This document shows, piece after piece, positions 15,263 through 59,561 of a DNA stretch of 64,000 bases. The translations under genes were made by a program, and so were the position numbers. The DNA comes from Stegostoma tigrinum. Lineage: Eukaryota. Location of the stretch: contig NC_081380.1 of NCBI RefSeq assembly GCF_030684315.1, forward strand, positions 44,294,771-44,358,770, in the 5' to 3' direction. Under the pieces are notes generated by a model, which was not told the origin of the DNA, did not search any database, and worked only from the letters and a program-made list of their open reading frames with translations. The first letter of the stretch is position 1. Each line of letters starts with the position of its first letter.

Positions 15263-15332
15263 CACTCTTGCCTCTCCCATATCTTTTACATATCTAAAAA
15301 GATATGTAAAAGATATGGGAGAGGCAAGAGTG
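15263..15332. repeat. Perfect inverted repeat, 33-bp arms, 4-nt loop
   Basis: cactcttgcctctcccatatcttttacatatct-aaaa-agatatgtaaaagatatgggagaggcaagagtg. Confidence 0.95.
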
Positions 15333-28649: not shown

Positions 28650-31294
28650 TCCATCCACAACCTCCACAGCCAGCAACCCCAGAGAAGACAGCCACATTGA
28701 GCCCTGCTGAATTTACACCATTCCCCGAGACCTCCCCCGACGGAAGACGAGCGGTCAGTCCTCAGCAAGGGGCTCACCTTTGACACCTTCCACCCTCCCC
28801 TCACGCATCAACAATTACCAGTCACGTCTGGACATTGAGCAGTTTTCCCGCCGCCTCCACCTCCACGCTTACTTCTCTAACCGGGAGCCTAACCCTCCCT
28901 CCACTGACCCCTTCACCCACCTCCAACACAAGTCCACCTCCTGGACACCACCCCCCGGGTCTCCTACCCTCCCTCGACCTCTTCAACTCCAACTGCTGTC
29001 GAGACATCAACTGCCTCAATCTCTCTACCCCTCTCACCCACTCCAACCTCTCCCCTGCAGAACGAGCAGCCCTCTGCTCCAATCCCAACCTCACCATCAA
29101 ACCCACAGACGAAGGAGGCGCAGTTGTAGGATGGCGCACTGACCTTTACATTGCTGAGGCTGGACGCCAACTTTCTGACACCACCTCTTACCGCCCCCTT
29201 GATCATGAACCTACCCCCGAGCACCAAACCATCATCTCCCAAACCATCCATGACCTCATCATCTCAGGTGACCTCCCATCCACAGCCTCCAACCTCATTG
29301 TTCCCCAACCCCGCACGGCCCGTTTCCATCTCCTTCCCAAAATCCACAAACCCGCCTGTCCTGGTCGACCTATTGTCTCAACCTGCTCCTGCCCCACTGA
29401 ACTCATCTCCACCTATCTGGACTCCATTTTCTCCCCCTTGGTCCAGGAACTCCTTACCTACATCTGTGACACCACCCACGCCCTCCACCTCCTCCAGAAC
29501 TTCCAATTCCCTGGTCCCCAACACCTCATTTTCACCTTGGACGTCCAGTCCCTATAGACCTGCATTCCCCATGCAGATGGCCTACAGGCCCTCTGCTTCT
29601 TCCTGTCCCGCAGACCTGACCAGTCCCCCTCCACCGACAACCTCATCCGCCGAGCCAAACTCGTCCTCACCCTCAACAACTTCTCTTTCGATTCATCCCA
29701 CTTCCTACAGACAAAGGGGGTGGCCATGGGTACCCGCATGGGCCCAAGCTATGCCTGCCTCTTTGTAGGTTACGTGGAACAGTCCCTCTTTCGCACCTAC
29801 ACTGGCCCTAAACCCCAACTCTGCCTCCGTTACATTACTGTATCGGCGCCACCTCATGCTCCCAAGAGGAGCTCAAACTGTTCATCCATTTCACCAACAC
29901 CCTCCACCCCAACCTTCAGTTCACCTGGACCATCTCCAATACATCCCTCACCTTCCTGGACCTCTCAGTCTCCATCTCGGGCAACCACCTACAAACCAAT
30001 GTCCATTTCAAGCCCACCGACTCTCACAGCTACCTGGAATACACCTTCTCCCACCCACATTCCTGCAAAAATTCCATCCCCTATTCCCAATTCCTTCGCC
30101 TCCACCGCATCTGCTCCCAGGATGAGGAATTCCACTCCTGTACATCCCAGATGTCCACGTTCTTCAAAGACCACAACTTTCCCACCGTAGTGGTCGAGAA
30201 CGCACTCAACCGTGTCTCCCGCATTTCCCGCACCTCATCCTTCACATCCCACCATAACCGCCAAAAGAGAATCCCCCTCATCCTCACATGCCACCCCACC
30301 AACCTCTGGATCAACGCATCATCCTCCGACACTTCCGCCATCTACAATCCGACCCCACAACTAAAGACATTTTTCCAACCCCACCCTTGTCTGCCTTCCA
30401 GAGAGACCACTCTCTCCGCGACTCCCTTGTCCGCTCCACACTCCCCTCCAACCCCACCACACTCGGCACTTTCCCCTGCAACCGCAGGAAGTGCTACACC
30501 TGCCCCCACACCTCCTCCCTCACCCCCATCCCAGGCCCCAAGATGACTTTCCACATCAAGCAGATGTTCACCTGCACATCCGCCAATGTGGTATACTGCA
30601 TCCGCTGTACCCGGTGTGGCTTCTTCTACATTGGGGAGACCAAGTGGAAGCTTGGGGACCGCTTTGCAGAACACCTATGCTCGGTTCACAATAAACAACT
30701 GCACCTCCCAGTCGCGAACCATTTCAACACCCTCTGCCAGTCCTGAGATGACATGTCCATCCTGGGCCTCCTGCAGTGCCATAATTATGCCATCCGTAGG
30801 TTGGAGGAACAGCAACTCATATTCTGCTTAGGAACCCTGCAGCCGAATGGTATTACTGTGGATTTCACCAGCTTCAAAATCTCCCCTCCCCGAATGCATC
30901 CCAAAACCAGCCCAGCTCGTCCCCGCCTCCCTAACCTGTTCTTCCTCTCACCTATCCCCTCCTCCTGCCTCAAGCCGCACCTCCATTTCCTACCTACTAA
31001 CCTCATCCCGCCCCCTTGACTTGTCCGTCCTCCCCGGACTGGCCTATTCCCTCCCTACCTCCCCACCCATAGTCTCCTCTCCTCCTATCTTCTCCTCTAT
31101 CCATCTTCAGTCCGCGCCCCCCACCTTTCCCTATTTATTTCAGAATCCTCTCCCCATCCCCCTTTTCTGACGAAGGGTCTAGGCCCGAAACGTCAGCTTT
31201 TGTGCTCCTAAGATGCTGCTTGGCCTGTTGTGTTCATCCAGCTCCACACTTTGTTATCTTGGATTCTCCAGCATCTGCAGTTCCCATTATCTCT
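28650..31294 (+). mobile_element. Near full-length Penelope-like retroelement (Neptune-type), RT + GIY-YIG, inactivated
   Basis: TIKPTDEGGAVV, LLPKIHKP..GRPIVS, FTLDVQSL*, QTKGVAMGTRMGPSYACLF, linker CNRRKCYTC, NVVYCIRC..YIGET..RFAEH; stops and frameshifts; catalytic DD missing after LRYI (~29836); 3' pLTR with hammerhead motif. Confidence 0.95.
31163..31199 (+). ncRNA. Minimal type I hammerhead ribozyme motif in the Penelope pLTR
   Basis: CTGACGA-A-GGGT(CTAG)GCCC-GAAA-CGTC at 31167-31194; palindromic ACGT helix III; helix I very short. Confidence 0.7.
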
Positions 31295-33674
31295 AAAAAT
31301 GAACAATTGTTTGCTTTACTACTGTCAGTTATGATTAAAACTTGACACCCCTGTTGATTTTGCAACCTGGCAATACAATCCAGGTTTAACTAAGAGCAAC
31401 TTCACCGCTTGATCTCACTGTTTTGCAGATATATGAAGACCATTGGAGATTTGTCAAGAACAACCTCTTCCTGGAATGAGTTTGGCCGGACCCAAATCAA
31501 TCTCAAACAGGCTCACAGCATAAAAACTCCAATGCAGGTCTGGCAGCTGCAGCCAGTATAAATTTACTCTTCATTAAAAAGTCTTGACAGAAGAGCCCTT
31601 TCTCTCCAACTGCAGGAAACAGCTTGCACTTCTTTTACCTACCTTCTCCTGGTGATAGGGCTACAAATCTCTTAAGATTTAAGGGTGTCCAGTTGGCTCT
31701 CCAGCTATGTAAGTTCCTTCACCATTCTTAACTGGATAACAAACACTCATTCACTGCTGATTGCCTGTTTATTAAAAGAAAAAAACAACTGGCACCACAA
31801 TTCTCTGACAACCTGGTGGACTCTGGCAACCAAGCCTGAGGTTGCCACCTCAGCCAAAGCAGTCTCCGTGGTTCAGAGGCATAGCTAACACTGTTGCAAG
31901 AACATCAGTTCTTTCCCTTCTCCACCACCAGAGTAACTTTTCTGCTGTGGCATATTCATTTGATCTCAGCTCCTGCACCTACCTCCTATCAAGGCTCATG
32001 TTCTGCTGCTCTCAATATTGCCTGTAACATCTTCTCTCACTTGCTGCCTTTCTCCCCCCAGTCTTCTAGGCCACAAATCCTGCATGACCTCTGCATTGCT
32101 TAATCACTTGTCTCAGATACCTTTCAACCTCCCTGCACAAGCAATAACAGCTGTGTCACCCACCTTCATCTCACTCAATCCTGGCCTTTCTCTCATTCCA
32201 GGAGAAGACATTCCACAATGCTGTAAATGAACCGGTCAGCAATGTCTGAGGCAGAGAGATGTGCAGCACGCAGGGAACCAATACAGTAAGGCATCAGCAG
32301 CCCACAGGTTGTGTCCTGTACAGCATGGGTCTGTTGTAATGTTCTTGCCCTCTAAAAGACTTGTGGCCTCCCCTCTGAACATCCAGACACTTACCCACTC
32401 ATTCTGGGTGTGGTCAGAGTTATTTTGTTTCACAGTGAGCAGTTTCAACTTCTAGCATGATGAAAGGTAACAATGAATGAAGCAATAATCCACCTTAAAG
32501 GATAACTTGTCACTCTGCATTGAGAAACTTGCCTCAACATCCAGAATGTAGTTAAAGGATGCAACAAGTTGCTCCCTATGTTGAGATAGGCCTCATCAGA
32601 CTTATAGCCTGATTCTGCCACATATGGCTCGTTTAAAATTCCACCCATAGTTTCTGGCAGAAGTCATTCTGGAAAATAATACGCAGAGACATAGGCTTTG
32701 TACCGTAAAATTATTGAGCCATTTGTGGGAATCCAACTCACATTGCTCTGAATTCTTTATTAAACTATTTGTTAACTTCTCACCTCTTTTGGCATCAGTT
32801 CCCAACCAAAAGCAGTTGCAACTACCAGGTAGTTGGAATCCAGCCAATTCAACATCATCATTACTCGTCATCAGAAGTGAGGTTGACTCTGAATAAAGCC
32901 GATTTTGCTGCTGAATTAATCTACAAGTAACCTAACATTGAATTGTTCAAATTGAGTTCAACATGCCAGAGCATCTGTAAACTTCATCACTGACTCAAAC
33001 CAAATTATCTTGGTAAGTTTTTGTCAATAATCCTTCTAAACTTTTCTTAATTGTGTGCCATCCTTTTAGATTCCTACGCAGTTGTGATGGCGCACCTTAG
33101 AAGAAACATGTTTTTTTGGTGAACTGTTTTTTGAACTTGTTAAAGGCCCAGATAACTGAATTAGTGATAGGCAATGGTCTCTATGAGGGCACGATACAGG
33201 CTTATTCTCTGGTAATCTATCTGTCAACTCTCAACCCATCTGTAACCTCTCTAACTTCACTGTAATCCTTTTTGTCTCTCTGTTATCAATATGAAAATGT
33301 TTAACTATTTCCTGTTATGTTCCTTTGAACTTTCTCTCAGTCCTGTACAGCTGCAAATATATCACCTACATTATGTTGCTCCCTTTCTATTGTCATCGCA
33401 TTGCTATTTTACATTTGTGCCCTCCCAGTGCCTCCTACCCCAAAGCTTTCCTTCCTAAAATTCCAAAGCTATTGCTCTCTTCCTTTCTCACCTGTAATCT
33501 GCAGACTCAAGCTTGGCATTATGCAATCATTATTTCATAATTTATATCCACAACCTTTGTAGAATTCTGCTTAATGAATTTTAGCCCTTCACCTAAGGAT
33601 TTTCAATTAAAAAGTAACACAAGCTCATGAACAGGAGCTAATTTGCTAATATCTCAACCCATTACTTTATTGAA

Positions 33675-33875: not shown

Positions 33876-34340
33876 CTACTTTTATTGATGATTCCAAAAC
33901 AGACATCAACTTCCTCAAGATCACAAGTCCTTTTACAGGACAAGAGCTGAATTACTATAGCTCAATTGCTGTTTAATGGTCAATGAACATCTTGTTTCTT
34001 CCCATTTTGTGAAGTTGCAGCTTCTGTATGACTGCAAGTTGATCAAATAGCTCTCATCTTACAAAGTTTCGTCCTTTGCCCATGTATTGATCATTATGGT
34101 CTTTCTATCTCCAGTGGACTCAAACAGAACTTCCATATAGCTTCTTTGACTCAAAGTAACTGCAAGGAAACTTGGTTTCTGCTTTCAGCCAAAATGGCCT
34201 TTCCCCTTGATAATAATTAACTCTCCCTGAAGCTGATATCCAAACATCTACAAATTGATTTCTTTCCAAAACTGCCACAGTGTTCAGGGAGACTCTTTGA
34301 ACACCTCTCACTTCTTCACACCACCAACACAATACTCAAT

Positions 34341-34560
34341 ATAATAAAATGTGAGGCTGGGTGAACACAGCAGGCCAAGCAGCATCTCAGGAGCACAAAA
34401 GCTGACGTTTCGGGCCTAGACCCTTCATCTGATGAAGGGTCTAGGCCCGAAACGTCAGCTTTTGTGCTCCTGAGATGCTGCTTGGCCTGCTGTGTTCACC
34501 CAGCCTCACATTTTATTATCTTGGAATTCTCCAGCATCTGCAGTTCCCATTATCTCCTCT
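34341..34560. mobile_element. Perfect palindromic Penelope pLTR mini element (family A)
   Basis: 89-bp identical inverted arms 34341-34429 / 34431-34519, 1-nt spacer, ~40-nt tail; hammerhead motif 34429-34456; TSD acaatactcaatat 34329-34342 / 34561-34574. Confidence 0.95.
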
Positions 34561-35264
34561 ACAATACTCAATATGTATGGTTTGTTAGTGTTGAGGATTG
34601 CACACTGGAAAGAAAGAAGTAAACTCCACAGTCCTATGTAAATTTAAATTGATAAGCCCACAGGCAAAGAACATGCCTCTATGGAAATTCTGTTTAACAC
34701 AGCAGTAGAGATTGTCTCTTGTTGAGTTACCACCCCATGTGACTCAGCTGTTACTGAACTGTACTTTTAGCCCATTAGGAATCAGTATTCGGAGCATAAA
34801 AATCGAGTGTCATTCTTTATAATATTTCTGCATGATCTATTCAGCACCAGGCAACAATACTGCCTCAGTCTTTCCACAGAATGATCTGCTTGTTTCTTGG
34901 TCCTGGCTGTAACAAATAGTTACAGAGCCCATATTAACAGCTTTTGATTTCTACAAAAAAATTCCTCAATGAGACCAGTTTCTTACATTTTTTTCACACC
35001 CACACACCTCAGTACTATTTCATTTTTGTGACCTAGAATTAATCGTGGCCACAATACCCAACATCTTTGTGTCTTGCACTGAATTGGCTGATTTAATGGT
35101 ACATTATTGAAAAGATTTTATATTCACATACATGGAAAAAGATTTTATACTAAAACACTGTACAGACAGCAATCACAGCAGGCTACTTGGGTGCTTACTA
35201 GATTATGCAGGGAACCATCAGTTTCAAAATAGAACAGCAGAGAGATGAAGAGCTGTAGAATACT

Positions 35265-36317: not shown

Positions 36318-37060
36318 ACTTTCATTCGAACACAAGTGATGCCCATGGCTGGCTAGGCCAACATTCATTGTTCATCTCTACTTATCCTGGAAAAGGTGGT
36401 GGTGATAACACAGTGTGAAGCTGGAGGAACACAGCAGGCCAGGCAGCATCAGAGGAGCAGGAAAACTGATGTTTCAGGTTGGGACCCTTCTTCAGAAAAA
36501 AATTCTTGAAGACGGGTCCTGACCTGAAATGTCCGCTTTCCTGCTCCTCTGATGCTGCCTGGAGTGCTGTGTTTCTCTAGCTCCACACTATGTTATCTCG
36601 GAATCCAGCATCAGCAGTTCTTACTATCTCAAAGGTGGCGATGAGTTGCTTTCTTGAACTGCTGCACTCCTTGGGGTATTGGTTCACACACAATTCTTTT
36701 AGGTAAGGAGTTCTAGGATTTTAACCCAGCAGCAGTGAAGGAAAGATGGTTCCAAGTCAGGATGATAACTGGCTTGCAGGAAAATGTTCCTATGTACCTG
36801 CTTCCCTTGGGCTTCTAGATGGTAGAGCTTGTCGTTTAGGAAAGTGTTCTTGAAGAAGCCTTGGTGTGTTATTGCAGTGCATCTTGGTGGTGGAACACAC
36901 TGCTACCACTGTGTGACAGAGATGAAGGGAGTAAATTTTGAACATGATGGATGTGGTGCCAGTTAAGCATCTACTTTGCCCTAGATGGTGTAAACCTTCT
37001 TGAGTAATGGAGTTGTACTCACCCAGGCATGTGGGGAATATTTTATCACATTTACCTCTT
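36318..37060 (-). mobile_element. 3' end of the second LINE family, interrupted at 36404-36630
   Basis: SLHLCHTVVAVCSTTKMHC on the minus strand; tail homologous to 10380-10470. Confidence 0.7.
36404..36630. mobile_element. Palindromic Penelope pLTR mini element (family A variant, older)
   Basis: Diverged inverted arms meeting at ttcagaaaaaaattcttgaa; TSD aaaggtggtggtga 36392-36405 / aaaggtggcgatga 36631-36644. Confidence 0.9.
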
Positions 37061-39837: not shown

Positions 39838-42800
39838 TCATAGAAGCATAGAATTTACAGTACAGAAGGAGGTCACTCAACCCATCATGTCTGTAGTTGC
39901 TCCTCAAAGGGCTACTCAGCTCATCCCATTCTCCAGCCCTATTTCCATAGCCCTTTAATCATGTTCAAATATATATCTAATTGTCTTTTGAAAACTCATG
40001 TGGAATCTGCATCCACTACTCTTCCAGGTAGCTCATTCCAAATTCTAACAACTCTCTCTGAGTAAAGAAGTTTCTCCTCATCTCAATTCTAATCCTCTTG
40101 TTTATAATCTTGAAATTGTGACCCCTAGCTGCTGACATACTAACTAGTGGAAACAGAACATCTTCTTTACCCAATTAAAATTGTTCATAATTTTGGATAC
40201 TTCAGCAAGGTCATTGCTTAATCTTGTTGCTCAAAGGCTAATAAGCCCCAATTTCTCTAATCTTTCCTTGTATTTAAAACCCCTTATTCCTGCTTTCATT
40301 CTAGTAAATGCAATTCGTACTCTCTCCAGGGCTTTAGCATCCTTAAATAAGGTGCCCAAACTGACCACAACACCCCAAATGCGGTCTGATCAATGATTTG
40401 CAGAGATCCAGCATCACTTCCTTTCCTTTATATTCCATGTCCCTGTTTATAAACCCAAGGATCCTATTAGCCTTCTTAACAACTGTTTCAATTTTCCTGG
40501 CCACCTTCAGAGAATTACACAGGTGAACCCTGCGGTCCTTGCGCTCCTGTACTCTACTCAAAATTGTACCATTGACGTTACATTGTCTCTCCATGTTGCT
40601 TTTACCAAAGTACATTACCTCACAATTCTCTTCAATGAAATTTATCTGCCAGGTGACTTCCCATTTGGCCAACTTGTCAATGTTCCCCTGAAGTCGCTTT
40701 GCGTCATCCTCACAATTCACTATTGTCAGTAGCTTAGTATCATCTGTAAATTCAGCAAGTTTGCCCTGAACACCAAATCCAAATTGTTTACATAAATCAA
40801 AAAAAAACAACAGTCCCAACATCCATCCTCTGGGGAACTTCATTTTCAACATGTCTCCAAACTGACCCACTGACTGTCATCTAAACCTACCCTGTACTTC
40901 TTATCTTTTAGCTAACTACTAATCCACGCTGTCAAAGACTCGTCGATCCCAAACATTTCAAATTTGCTAACCGACCTGCCACATGGCACAGTATCAAATT
41001 TTCCGGAAGTCCAAATATACAACATCCACAGCACAACCCTCACCCATTGCCTGTGTCACCTTGTTAAAGAACTCAGTCAAATTTGTCAGATACAAATTTG
41101 TGTCAGGTTTCCCACTACTGACATCAAGCTGACAGGTCTGTAGTTTCCTGGGTTATTGTTTGCCCTTTTCTTAAACAATAGTGTCACATTTACAATCCTT
41201 CAGTCCCCAGGGCTAATCCTGGAAAATTTCTGTCAATGGCTCCGCAATTTGTTCCTTTACCTCTCTCAGCAATCTAGGATGCAGCCCATCAGACCTAGCA
41301 ACTTTTCTATCAGGTGTGTTGCCAATGTTTTAGCACCTGTTCTTGATCTTTCACTATACTGCTCGGTTGCTCAACATCCATATTTTAAATTAAGCCGTTG
41401 TCACCATTTTCCAATTTGGTAAAGATAAAAACAAGTACTTATTTAGTACTTCTGCCATATCCTTTACTTCAGTGAGCAGCTTATCCTGCTTGTTCCTTAT
41501 GGGTCTTACTCTATCTTTCACTAACCTTTTACCATTAATAGTTTGAAGAACATTTTACTATTTGTTTTAGCATAGTCTGCCTTCTGTTCCTCATGGTTCC
41601 TTTTAGCATTCCTCATTCCAGCCTTAGTGTCTATCCTATATTTGAGATATCCTTCCTAATTTTTATTGCTATTAATATTCCGGTATGCATCATACACCGC
41701 ATTTTTCTTCCTTATTTCTTATCAATATCTTTAGTCATCCAGGATACTCTAGTTTTGGATACCCGGTATTTATTTCCTGGGGGTATATACTTTGCTTGCA
41801 CTCTATTCATTATTCTTTTGAAATTCTCCCATTTTTCATCTGTCATTTTATCCACCAAAATGTGTTTCTGATCAACCTGCTCCAGTGTGACTTTTAGACC
41901 CCTAAAATATGTCCTTTTCCTGGATGGAATCTTTATCATTGACTGATTTTTATCCTTTTCCAACTTAATATTGAACCTAATTATATTATGATTGCTATTT
42001 CCCAAAGGCTCCCTCACTCTGGTGTTCTCCATTTGGCCTGTCTTATTCCATGGGAGCAGATCTAGAACAGCTTCCTCCCCACTATGACTGGAAACGTGCT
42101 GTTCCAGAAACTTCTCCTGCACTCACTTCAGGAATTTCTCCCCCTCCATGCCCCATGTGATACTTCCCCCCCCAGTCTACCCTATAGTAACTGAAATCAC
42201 CAACTATCATAACACTCCTTGTCCTGCAAATTCCCATAATCTCCCTAGACGTCTCTTCTACTTTCTTCCCACTATTTGGAGGTCTGTAATAAATACCCAA
42301 CAAAGTCGCTGCTACCTTTCTGTTTTTCACCTACAACCAGAGATTCTATTGCAGTAACTGGCAATGATACTATCTTTGACCAAGACTGTTGCACCTCCTC
42401 CCTTTTCACCCGCCCTGTTTCTACTAAAAGTCTTATAACCCAAGATTTTAAGTATTCAGATAACAAGGTGTTGATCTGGAAGAATGCAGCAGGCCAGGCA
42501 GCATCAGTGAAGCAGGAAAGCTGACGTCTCGGGTCTGGACCCTTCTTCAAATTTGCTAACCGATCTGCCACGTGACACAGTATCAAATTTTACGCAAGTC
42601 CAAACAAACAACATTCACAGCCTTCAGAAGAAGGGTCCAGGTCTGAAACATCGGCTTTCCTGTTCCTCTGATGCTGCCTGGCCTGCTGTGTTCATCCAGC
42701 TCTACACTTTGTTATCTCAGACTCCACATCAGCAGTTCCTATTATCTCTATGTTAAGTATGCAGTCCTGTTCTGGCGATGCTTCTGTCAATACTGCCATA

Positions 42801-43135
42801 TCATATACCTCTATAGAAATGTTTGCATGCAGTTCCCCAATTATTTTCACTATATTCCGTGCATTTACATGTAAAAAATTTAACCCTGTTTTCTTTCTTG
42901 TCTGTTGGTGCACTGTCAATACTTAAGCCTTCCCTCACTTTTTTTTGTCCATTCCCCATCTTTTCCCTTTTGCCCTCTCTAGCAGTTCCAAAACTAAACC
43001 CATTAGTCAACCCATGCCTGCCTTACAAGCTTAAATCTACCCCACTACACTATTTACTCTCTCAGCCAGTAGATTAATTCCAATTCTGCTCAGGCGAAGT
43101 CCACCTCTTCTGAACAGCTTTTCCTTTCTCGGTGT
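39838..43135 (-). mobile_element. Decayed CR1 LINE covering most of ORF2
   Basis: EFTDDTKL..LQGNIDKLAKWEVTWQINF, SLIRPHL, APE pieces LLGIYYRPPNS, MIVGDF, LGNSNHNIIRF, FLHVNARNIVK. Confidence 0.9.
42458..42752. mobile_element. Palindromic Penelope pLTR mini element with captured 76-bp spacer
   Basis: Inverted arms ~42458-42549 and ~42622-42718 plus tail; TSD ttaagtattcag 42448-42459 / ttaagtatgcag 42753-42764; spacer matches 40957-41032. Confidence 0.9.
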
Positions 43136-44318: not shown

Positions 44319-45656
44319 TTGTTCAGGCTCCCACATAGCCAACATAACCATTACTCTTGAATGCCTATTTGCTTGGGTCAGGCACTAGCTGTACACTTCA
44401 GTGGCTTGAACTCAAATCCACATTGGTTGAGATAAGATTGCTATCTCCATTGGTTACAAGAGTACTTCATGTAACGAGGTTCTGTATAATACTGAAAGGA
44501 CTGCATAGAAATAGCACTCGTTCTCAGAAAAGGGAGAGAAATGGGAATTTGTTTAACATTGGCAGAGTAAGATTTGCTCCCTTGAGGGCGAAGTTAGGAT
44601 GCACAGTGTCGTAGAATGGAACAATTTTTATTTGGCACTCCTGCTTCTCCTGGCCCCACAAAAATAATTTTCACACTTAGCTTGAACAGTCTCTGTTTTC
44701 TTACTGAATGAAATATTGATGGTAAATAGCTAAAATTTCTTTGAGGAGAATAGTAAGTACCTAGTAAGAGTCTTGACTTGCAATGAGTGTTGAAGCTCCT
44801 ACGTGGTGTCCAAATAGACAAAGTGATTATCTGGCTGACAGCTCTGGGAGGGAACACTTAGAAGTAATGTGGTGATAAGTCTACCACTTCCATTTTAACT
44901 TGTCTACTGCCTGTTTTCCTGTGGGTGGAGAGAGTTAAACTCATCCAACTAATTCTAGTGATGATAATAAATTGAAACAGCCGCTAACAAAACATTTACT
45001 TGCTGACTTTGCTGAAGCAATGTCAGCTGCAAAGTTTGAGAGTTTCTAGAAAAAGTTAAACACTGAATATAATGAAGACATTTCCTGTGGAGTTTCATGC
45101 AATAAATCTTCCCAAAAATCTGCTTTTTAGAAAGGAATTGGGAAAGAACAGATTTTGCAAAATAAAGTAGATATTTCCGAAAGAAGTTGTAAACAGAACC
45201 AGCTTTAAACAAGCGAAATCTGTGACTTTGACAGGAGGCTGAGGTTGGGCCATATATCAGAGATGAATAGAGTGAGGAAGTGTTTGGGAAACAGTTAGTA
45301 AATTATATGCTAGCCAGTCAGGCTGTCTCCAAGGGTGTGGAGAACCATTGCCAGAAAGGCAGCTATATGCATGCTATTCACAAGCAAGGATCTCTCTACC
45401 TGGGTTCAACACCAGTAAATTAACACAACCAGCAGGGTGGCTATTAACATACTGAATTTTAGCTGCACCCCTGCAGTCATAAGTTAGAGTTCCAAGACTG
45501 TCTCAAAATTATAAATCTGGCAGCAAGGAGAGCCAAGTTTCATCAAAGTTCTTGGTTATACATGAGTGTCACTGGTGAAATTGGTGGGCTCGGTTGTTTC
45601 ACCCTTCCAGCTTGGAGGAGAGTGAAAGCCATTAAGTGGAGAAATCTTGAAGAAAA

Positions 45657-46182
45657 GAGACAACAAAATGTGAAGATAATAAAATGTGAGGCTGGATGAA
45701 CACAGCAGGCCAAGCAGCATCCAAAACCAGCCCAGCCTGTCTCTGCCTCCCTAACCTGTTCTTCCTCTCACCCATCCCTTCCTCCCACCCCAAGCCGCAC
45801 CTCCATCTCCTACCTACTAACCTCATCCCACCTCCTTGACCTGTCCATCTTCCCTGGACTGACCTATCCCCTCCCTACCTCCCCACCTATACTCTCCTCT
45901 CCACCTATCTTCTTTACTCACCATCTTCGGTCCGCCTCCCCCTCTCTCCCTATTTATTCCAGTTCCCTCCCCCCATCCCCCTCTCTGATGAAGGGTCTAG
46001 GCCCGAAACGTCAGCTTTTGTGCTCCTGAGATGCTGCTGGGCCTGCTGTCTTCATCCAGCTTCACACTTTATTCTCTTGGATTCTCCAGCATCTGCAGTC
46101 CCCCATTATCACTAGGCCAAGCAGCATCTCAGGAGCACAAATACTGACGTTTCGGGCCTAGACCCTTCAGCCGAGACCCTTC
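45657..46182. mobile_element. Composite Penelope pLTR insertion (forward copy inside an inverted copy)
   Basis: Outer TSD atcttgaagaaaa 45644-45656 / 46183-46195; inner duplication aggccaagcagcatc 45707-45721 / 46114-46128; intact hammerhead motif 45985-46012. Confidence 0.88.
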
Positions 46183-46229
46183 ATCTTGAAGAAAATATGT
46201 CTTTCCAGGTCCGCAACTAAGAATCATTC

Positions 46230-59367: not shown

Positions 59368-59561
59368 AAGATAACAAAGTGTGAAGCTGGATGAACACAG
59401 CAGGCCAAGCAGCATCTCAGGAGCACAAAAGCTGACGTTTCGGGCCTAGACCCTTCGTCAGAGCTCTCTGATGAAGGGTTTAGGCCCGAAACGTCAGCTT
59501 TTGTGCTCCTGGGATGCTGCTGGGCCTGCTGTGTTCATCCAGCCTCACATTTTACAATCTT
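59368..59561. mobile_element. Palindromic Penelope pLTR mini element with two hammerhead motifs
   Basis: Minus motif 59434-59461 (CTGACGA..GAAACGTC), plus motif 59468-59495, 6-nt spacer; possible TSD tacttact / tacttgct. Confidence 0.93.

What the first reader, a model, noticed from the sequence alone, without database searches (positions are those of the whole stretch)
42448..42764. Palindrome spacer is a templated copy of DNA 1.6 kb upstream
Seen: 42546-42621 matches 40957-41032 in the same orientation (68/76 by my count) and joins the left arm through a 4-nt TTCA microhomology. Both copies lack the same 2 nt of the expected CR1 K-A-F-D codons, so the donor looks like this local decayed copy and not another CR1. 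The unit has a 12-bp TSD. Inference: during integration the nascent strand jumped from the ribozyme region to neighbouring genomic DNA or a local transcript and then returned to the element.
Basis: partly seen in the sequence, partly recalled or inferred. Interest (0 to 1): 0.75.

Follow-up and report, generated by a model that had tools for sequence, protein, structure and literature searches.

The report
Penelope insertion with locally copied filler
An old jumping-gene insertion carries, between its two mirror-image halves, a 72-letter patch copied from DNA about 1.4 kb away; such local patches are known from other retrotransposons, so this is a clean single example rather than a new system.

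Summary
42546-42621 matches 40957-41032 at 68/76 without gaps (E 7.8e-25; next hit 0.014), with a TTCA overlap into the left arm and a 12-15 nt target duplication. The 'palindrome' is a standard Penelope-like insertion: an inverted terminal-repeat copy without tail facing a sense copy with a 32-nt tail, inserted into a decayed CR1-type LINE. The spacer comes from that same LINE copy. Besides the 2-nt deletion, spacer and donor share two bases (40973, 41004) where 85-95% of the depth from related copies in four public runs reads otherwise. Best reading (0.72): both target strands were primed, both cDNAs stopped at the hammerhead core, and a 72-nt patch copied in cis bridged them at integration. 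Which end did the copying, whether the template was DNA or RNA, and which polymerase acted are open. Later repair of the palindrome centre (0.13) or a rare CR1 sublineage as donor (0.10) are not excluded. Local templated inserts are published for L1, and host-DNA capture for Penelope. What differs is a mapped cis donor 1.4 kb away. One case among five inverted units in the window; no genome was held to count more.

The parts
42448..42459 (+). Left target-site duplication (12 nt; may extend to 42445, 15 nt)
   Evidence: 11/12 or 13/15 match to the right copy; other units of the family in the window have 14, 13, at least 8 and 5 nt
42458..42549 (-). Left arm: inverted, 5'-truncated Penelope-like terminal repeat (pLTR) without tail, ending in the decayed hammerhead core
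   Evidence: 16/92 differences from the right arm; 75-82% to other copies
42546..42549 (+). 4-nt microhomology shared by left arm and donor start
42550..42621 (+). 72-nt spacer, direct copy of 40961-41032
   Evidence: 64/72; shares the deletion and the bases at 42562 and 42593 with the donor
42622..42622 (+). One base matching neither donor nor arm (untemplated or mutated)
42623..42749 (+). Right arm: sense pLTR copy starting at the hammerhead core, with about 32-nt tail (42718-42749)
   Evidence: 83% over 131 nt to 31165-31295, the 3' end of a GIY-YIG-encoding copy
42753..42764 (+). Right target-site duplication (may start at 42750)
40957..41032 (+). Donor segment, in the RT region of the host LINE; carries the 2-nt deletion behind 40999 and rare bases at 40973 and 41004
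39900..42920 (-). Host: decayed CR1-type LINE (ends approximate); insertion lies in its endonuclease region, donor in its RT region
   Evidence: translations; Pfam Exo_endo_phos_2 E 2.4e-4, below curated cutoff; RT-domain homolog P0001, 39%; the clade name CR1 is recalled from motifs
28784..31295 (+). Long decayed copy of the related Penelope-like subfamily, used to identify the arms (not part of the unit)
   Evidence: Pfam GIY-YIG 23.8 bits, cutoff 22.6; RT-like motifs by recall

Best explanation
A Penelope-like element nicked both strands of a decayed CR1-type LINE 12-15 nt apart and primed reverse transcription from both nicks: one at the tail start site (right arm), one at the inner site (left arm). 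Both cDNAs stopped at the hammerhead core. Being the same sequence, they could not anneal to each other. One end copied 72-76 nt from the same LINE copy about 1.4 kb away, and the two ends were then joined. SHOWN: anatomy, duplication, match, shared rare states. FROM LITERATURE: two-strand nicking and two start sites. INFERRED: copying at integration. For direction I lean 55:45 to the right-arm cDNA moving without homology onto the top strand (exposed by resection of the left end, or a + strand RNA) and then annealing to the left arm through TTCA. The alternative is that the left arm's TTCA primed on the bottom strand or a CR1-sense RNA and was joined bluntly to the right arm. The unit is a fossil integration scar with no sign of function.
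For: Match far above chance. The two other RT-region LINE copies in the window match the spacer at only 50/76 and 41/76. In four runs, related copies read A at 40973 in 95, 95, 95 and 85% of depth and T at 41004 in 93, 94, 95 and 87%, while donor and spacer share G and C. Contigs with 2 extra letters behind 40999 occur in all four runs (6, 6, 5, 13 contigs), and depth dips there (884 vs 2126 at 40973 and 3579 at 41004 in X1), as expected if most related copies break at the gap. Both arms end within about 3 nt of each other at the family's usual stopping point, as do the arms at 34.4k, 36.5k and 59.5k, so the centre was not eroded. Spacer-donor divergence 8/76 is compatible with arm-arm 16/92 (Fisher p 0.27) and with the duplication 2/15 (p 0.67). 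PMC11167929: an anole PLE cuts and extends both strands and starts at two sites, without homology to the cut DNA.
Against: Contigs bridging 40999 without a gap were not counted. Those with the 2 extra letters are only 11-27% of the depth there, so rarity of the deletion is inferred, not measured. 5-15% of depth does not read the majority base at 40973 and 41004, so a minor sublineage could share both. One search showed only the best-supported differences (1457 hidden); these two were the only rows inside the donor. By coding logic about 6 of the 8 differences are on the spacer, 1 on the donor and 1 open (p 0.07-0.29): lopsided though not significant. The arm clock is only an upper bound, since the two arms are no closer to each other than to other old copies. 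72 nt and 1.4 kb exceed typical Pol theta inserts (<25 bp, PMC12426944) and L1 templated inserts (typically within 15 bp, bioRxiv 2024.08.27.596794). None of the other four inverted units in the window has such a filler.
Confidence: 0.72

Rival explanations
1. Same cis donor, later event: the insertion was first a near-perfect palindrome, which broke at its centre (hairpin or cruciform) and was repaired with a templated patch from 1.4 kb away.
For: Spacer-donor divergence (8/76) is nominally lower than arm-arm (16/92). Fillerless palindromes of this family exist at 34.4k and 59.5k. The unit folds as a strong hairpin, z -12.5.
Against: The difference is not significant (p 0.27). Both arms keep their ends at the family's usual stopping point, with no loss at the centre.
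Confidence: 0.13
2. The spacer came from another CR1 copy or its RNA, of a minor sublineage that already had the deletion and both bases; the neighbour is similar only by descent.
For: The family is abundant. 5-15% of depth lacks the majority base at the two sites, and gapless contigs over the deletion were not counted. Most differences fall on the spacer side.
Against: It needs the insertion to land by chance in a member of that same minor lineage. If the two sites were independent, the joint share would be 0.2-1.9%; if fully linked, at most 5-13%. A frameshift and a change at a position recalled as a conserved leucine argue for private decay.
Confidence: 0.1
3. A ready-made arm-spacer-arm unit was mobilised as a whole from another locus, like a non-autonomous palindromic element.
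For: A different arm-filler-arm unit (15 letters between) has summed depth 860, 140 and 1359 in the three organism A runs, so such units can be amplified. Penelope can move sequences held between pLTRs (PMC3846280).
Against: It does not explain why the spacer matches DNA beside this very site. The consensus of loose ends behind 42549 continues with arm-like sequence, not the spacer, in all four runs.
Confidence: 0.04

Closest known systems
Penelope-like element (EN+, Penelope/Poseidon type) inverted-pLTR insertions (PMC8557442 passages; PMC3846280 parts 1-3 of 5; PMC11167929 main text)
   Same: Inverted 5'-truncated copy facing a sense copy; 30-40 nt tail on one end only; short target duplication; hammerhead core in the pLTR; GIY-YIG after RT in a related copy.
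   Different: Here a 72-nt non-element filler sits at the inversion junction.
Host DNA captured between Penelope pLTRs in Adineta vaga (PMC3846280)
   Same: Non-element sequence between pLTRs, inside a target duplication.
   Different: In the parts read, those captures are mostly 0.9-1.5 kb spacers or whole genes between direct pLTRs, with no donor mapped beside the insertion. Here the piece is short, between inverted arms, and traced in cis.
L1 twin priming and templated insertions (bioRxiv 10.1101/2024.08.27.596794 passages and section 4 part 2; PMC11702581 passages)
   Same: Two primed cDNAs joined by microhomology; 22 of about 3,600 insertions carry a copied genomic piece under 250 bp; three further cases near the site in PMC11702581.
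   Different: L1 templates typically lie within 15 bp of the site; here 1.4 kb. L1 arms cover adjacent RNA parts; here both arms cover the same part. Different retroelement class.
Polymerase theta templated insertions (PMC12426944, PMC7407515, passages)
   Same: Direct-orientation copy of flanking DNA with a short microhomology at a break junction.
   Different: Typically under 25 bp and next to the break; microhomology is seen here at one junction only.

Membership tests
Penelope-like element (EN+) | GIY-YIG endonuclease C-terminal to RT in the family | tested here: met
   PF01541 23.8 bits, cutoff 22.6, at 30561-30743, in a copy whose 3' end matches the right arm at 83% over 131 nt. The unit itself has no ORF.
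Penelope-like element (EN+) | PLE-type reverse transcriptase | tested here: inconclusive
   RT-like motifs seen by eye in 28784-30543 (recalled); no Pfam hit on the broken frames; no tree built.
Penelope-like element (EN+) | Inverted 5'-truncated pLTR plus 30-40 nt tail on one end | tested here: met
   Arms 42458-42549 and 42623-42717; tail 42718-42749 on the right only.
Penelope-like element (EN+) | Minimal hammerhead core in the pLTR | tested here: inconclusive
   A recalled core pattern matches 9 family copies in the window but neither decayed arm of this unit. No Rfam hit. Folding z near 0. Cleavage not testable.
Penelope-like element (EN+) | Short target-site duplication | tested here: met
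   11/12 or 13/15; host frame continuous across the empty site.
Locally templated insertion | Insert matches nearby DNA better than any other locus | tested here: inconclusive
   Met within the 64-kb window; genome-wide search not possible.
Locally templated insertion | Insert carries states private to the local donor | tested here: met
   Shared G at 40973/42562 and C at 41004/42593 against 85-95% other letters; shared deletion against gapped related contigs.
Pol theta-mediated end joining | Microhomology at priming and resolving junctions | tested here: inconclusive
   4 nt at the left junction, none at the right; about 9% decay could have erased a short one.
Pol theta-mediated end joining | Dependence on Pol theta | not testable with these tools
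   Needs genetics.
CR1 clade (host) | APE endonuclease plus RT placed in the CR1 clade by phylogeny | tested here: inconclusive
   EN hit below cutoff; RT homolog P0001; the clade name rests on recalled motifs, no tree.

The most novel reading that the evidence does not exclude
Penelope integration normally yields two identical-sense cDNA ends, sometimes from two different RNAs (as the 59.4k unit suggests), that cannot anneal. The element's own RT may then bridge them by jumping onto resected DNA or nascent RNA kilobases from the cut. If so, the very many palindromic copies in such genomes are a fossil library in which filler length, donor distance and strand would reveal the unsolved last step of Penelope integration.
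Probability: 0.2. Interest if true: 0.6.

Novelty: new variant of a known kind. Interest (0 to 1): 0.32.

Why it matters
How Penelope-like elements finish integration and form their inverted structures is stated to be unresolved (PMC11167929, PMC8557442). A filler traced to a cis donor 1.4 kb away shows that the junction between the arms can be an open break with access to distant flanking sequence. It also suggests a cheap genome-wide test. Alone it is one old scar with no function, and its kind is known from L1.

Tried and rejected
No genome held, so no genome-wide BLAST or filler census. Exact-motif scans found nothing: metagenome contigs, viral contigs (23), genome contigs (30). The protein search gave one distant RT (39%), useless for polarising. 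Rfam: 0 hits. Folding of the ribozyme region was not above shuffles. Pfam on 150 of 323 open stretches of 58 aa or more (those from 28169 to 58585) found no host exon, so a local transcript and its strand are unknown. Organism A pieces about 6.6% from the window (7 pieces that I picked as probable orthologs from the 32 shown) did not bridge the insertion site among rows shown, so presence or absence there is open. Depth over the spacer cannot test single copy, since related LINE copies also lie there. The change at 40982 was dropped as a shared character because the copy at 3.4k has a similar codon. Chance similarity rejected. Earlier scan findings: nothing in 4 look-ups. PMC9977147 and PMC5625713 (passages) had no bearing.

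Full report
Observation. Bases 42546-42621 match 40957-41032 in direct orientation at 68 of 76 positions without gaps. In the window the hit has E 7.8e-25 and the next has E 0.014. The 72-nt core scores 64/72 at the donor and at most 36/72 elsewhere. The last four bases of the left arm are also the first four of the donor. At the right junction there is no overlap and one base fits neither side. The flanking duplication is 11/12 or 13/15. Removing the insert and one duplicate in silico leaves one host frame open across the site, with its only stop at the base where the duplicates differ. The donor ends 1416 nt from the duplication; 1589 is the start-to-start offset.

What the palindrome is. 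The arms (42458-42549, 42623-42717) belong to a repeat of which I aligned 13 arm copies from the window. The right arm matches, at 83% over 131 nt, the 3' end of a copy near 28.8-31.3 kb that encodes a GIY-YIG domain above the Pfam cutoff behind RT-like motifs (recalled). Only the right arm has the further 32 nt. This is the published Penelope layout: an inverted 5'-truncated terminal repeat and a 30-40 nt tail on one end (PMC8557442 passages; PMC3846280 parts 1-3 of 5). Nine copies match a recalled minimal hammerhead pattern, but the two decayed arms of this unit do not. Rfam finds nothing. Minimal hammerheads in such repeats are described in PMC4209133 (passages). The host is a decayed LINE on the minus strand, CR1 by recalled motifs; the insert is in its endonuclease region and the donor in its RT region.

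Is the donor the local copy? Two other LINE copies in the window cover this RT region. Both have the two extra bases and match the spacer at only 50/76 and 41/76, but they are distant relatives. No genome is held and four motif scans found nothing. I therefore laid contigs of four of the 17 listed runs (three of organism A from three studies, one of organism B) on 40700-42900 at 80% likeness. X11 may be the window's own source; the three organism A runs are not. Related copies read A at 40973 in 95, 95, 95 and 85% of depth and T at 41004 in 93, 94, 95 and 87% (X1, X2, X10, X11). Donor and spacer share G and C there. These were the only two rows shown inside the donor; 1457 rows were hidden. 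Contigs with two letters put in behind 40999 occur in all four runs (6, 6, 5, 13 contigs). They make up 11-27% of the depth at that base. The rest includes alignments that merely end there, and gapless bridging contigs were not counted. Depth dips at the site (884 against 2126 and 3579 nearby in X1), which fits a break in most related copies but does not measure it. A minor sublineage of up to 5-13% that shares both bases is not excluded. I put cis origin at about 0.85.

Timing. Spacer-donor 8/76, arm-arm 16/92 and duplication 2/15 do not differ significantly (p 0.27, 0.67). The arm figure is an upper bound: the arms are no closer to each other than to other old copies. By coding logic about six of the eight differences lie on the spacer (p 0.07-0.29), a lopsidedness I cannot explain. 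Both arms stop at the hammerhead core, as do the arms of three other palindromes in the window, and hundreds of contigs per run leave the reference at 42549 (158-1453). An uneroded centre favours filling at integration over later breakage but does not prove it.

Mechanism. The anole element cuts and extends both strands and starts at two sites that bound the tail, without homology to the cut DNA (PMC11167929, main text). That yields exactly a tailed and a tail-less arm facing each other. The two cDNA ends have the same sequence and cannot pair, so they must be joined by microhomology, bluntly or with filler. The window shows a 2-nt overlap (34.4k), a blunt join (59.5k), a few A's (36.5k) and this filler. 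Two routes fit. In B, the right-arm cDNA moves without homology onto the top strand at 41032, which resection of the left end would expose, copies 76 nt and anneals to the left arm by TTCA. In A, the left arm primes by TTCA on the bottom strand or a CR1-sense RNA and is joined bluntly. Each explains one junction by homology. I lean 55:45 to B because it needs no strand invasion. All of this paragraph beyond the cited experiment is inference. No host exon was found in the 150 of 323 open stretches scanned, so an RNA template has no independent support.

Known cases. L1 insertions carry copied genomic pieces: 22 cases, typically under 250 bp and within 15 bp of the site (bioRxiv 2024.08.27.596794), and three near-site cases in PMC11702581. 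Their supplementary figures on distance (Supp. Fig. 4d; Fig. S10) were not seen and may hold kilobase-range donors. Pol theta inserts are generally under 25 bp (PMC12426944). Penelope captures host DNA between terminal repeats in a rotifer, without a donor mapped beside the site in the parts read. Searches showed no paper reporting a cis-mapped filler in a Penelope inverted junction. The library lacks most subscription papers, so this is weak evidence of absence.

Verdict. Real, and well supported as a local copy. It is a variant of known integration scars, unusual in element class, length and distance. It is one case among five inverted units in the window and has no sign of function. Interest 0.32; 0.6 if a genome-wide census shows the pattern is regular.

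Noticed in passing
window 59368-59561: The two arms of this young palindrome differ at 9/90. At 5 of the 9 columns both states occur in other copies: left is closest to the 18.9k and 31.2k copies (3/90), right to the 63.8k copy (5/90). This suggests two different RNA templates in one insertion. The arms at 34.3k differ at 1/90.
   Followed up: partly
window 45644-46195: Complex unit of the same family inside a 13-nt duplication: left arm restarted (16-nt repeat), joined to a longer sense copy, then a further inverted piece and a short slipped piece after the tail.
   Followed up: partly
window 28784-31295: Long decayed Penelope-like copy with RT-like frames and GIY-YIG.
   Followed up: partly
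joint 42549 to 42665: An arm-filler-arm unit with 15 letters between has summed depth 860, 140 and 1359 in the three organism A runs and 0 in X11: possibly a palindromic unit amplified in the related species only.
   Followed up: no
window 15263-15332: Hairpin with perfect arms of about 33 nt and a short loop, not of the Penelope family.
   Followed up: no
window 34337-34575 and 36392-36645: Two more inverted pairs with duplications of 14 and at least 8 nt; 2-nt overlap and a short A-rich filler at the centre.
   Followed up: partly
window 40957-41032 vs 42546-42621: About six of the eight differences fall on the spacer side, some in close pairs; not significant, unexplained.
   Followed up: partly
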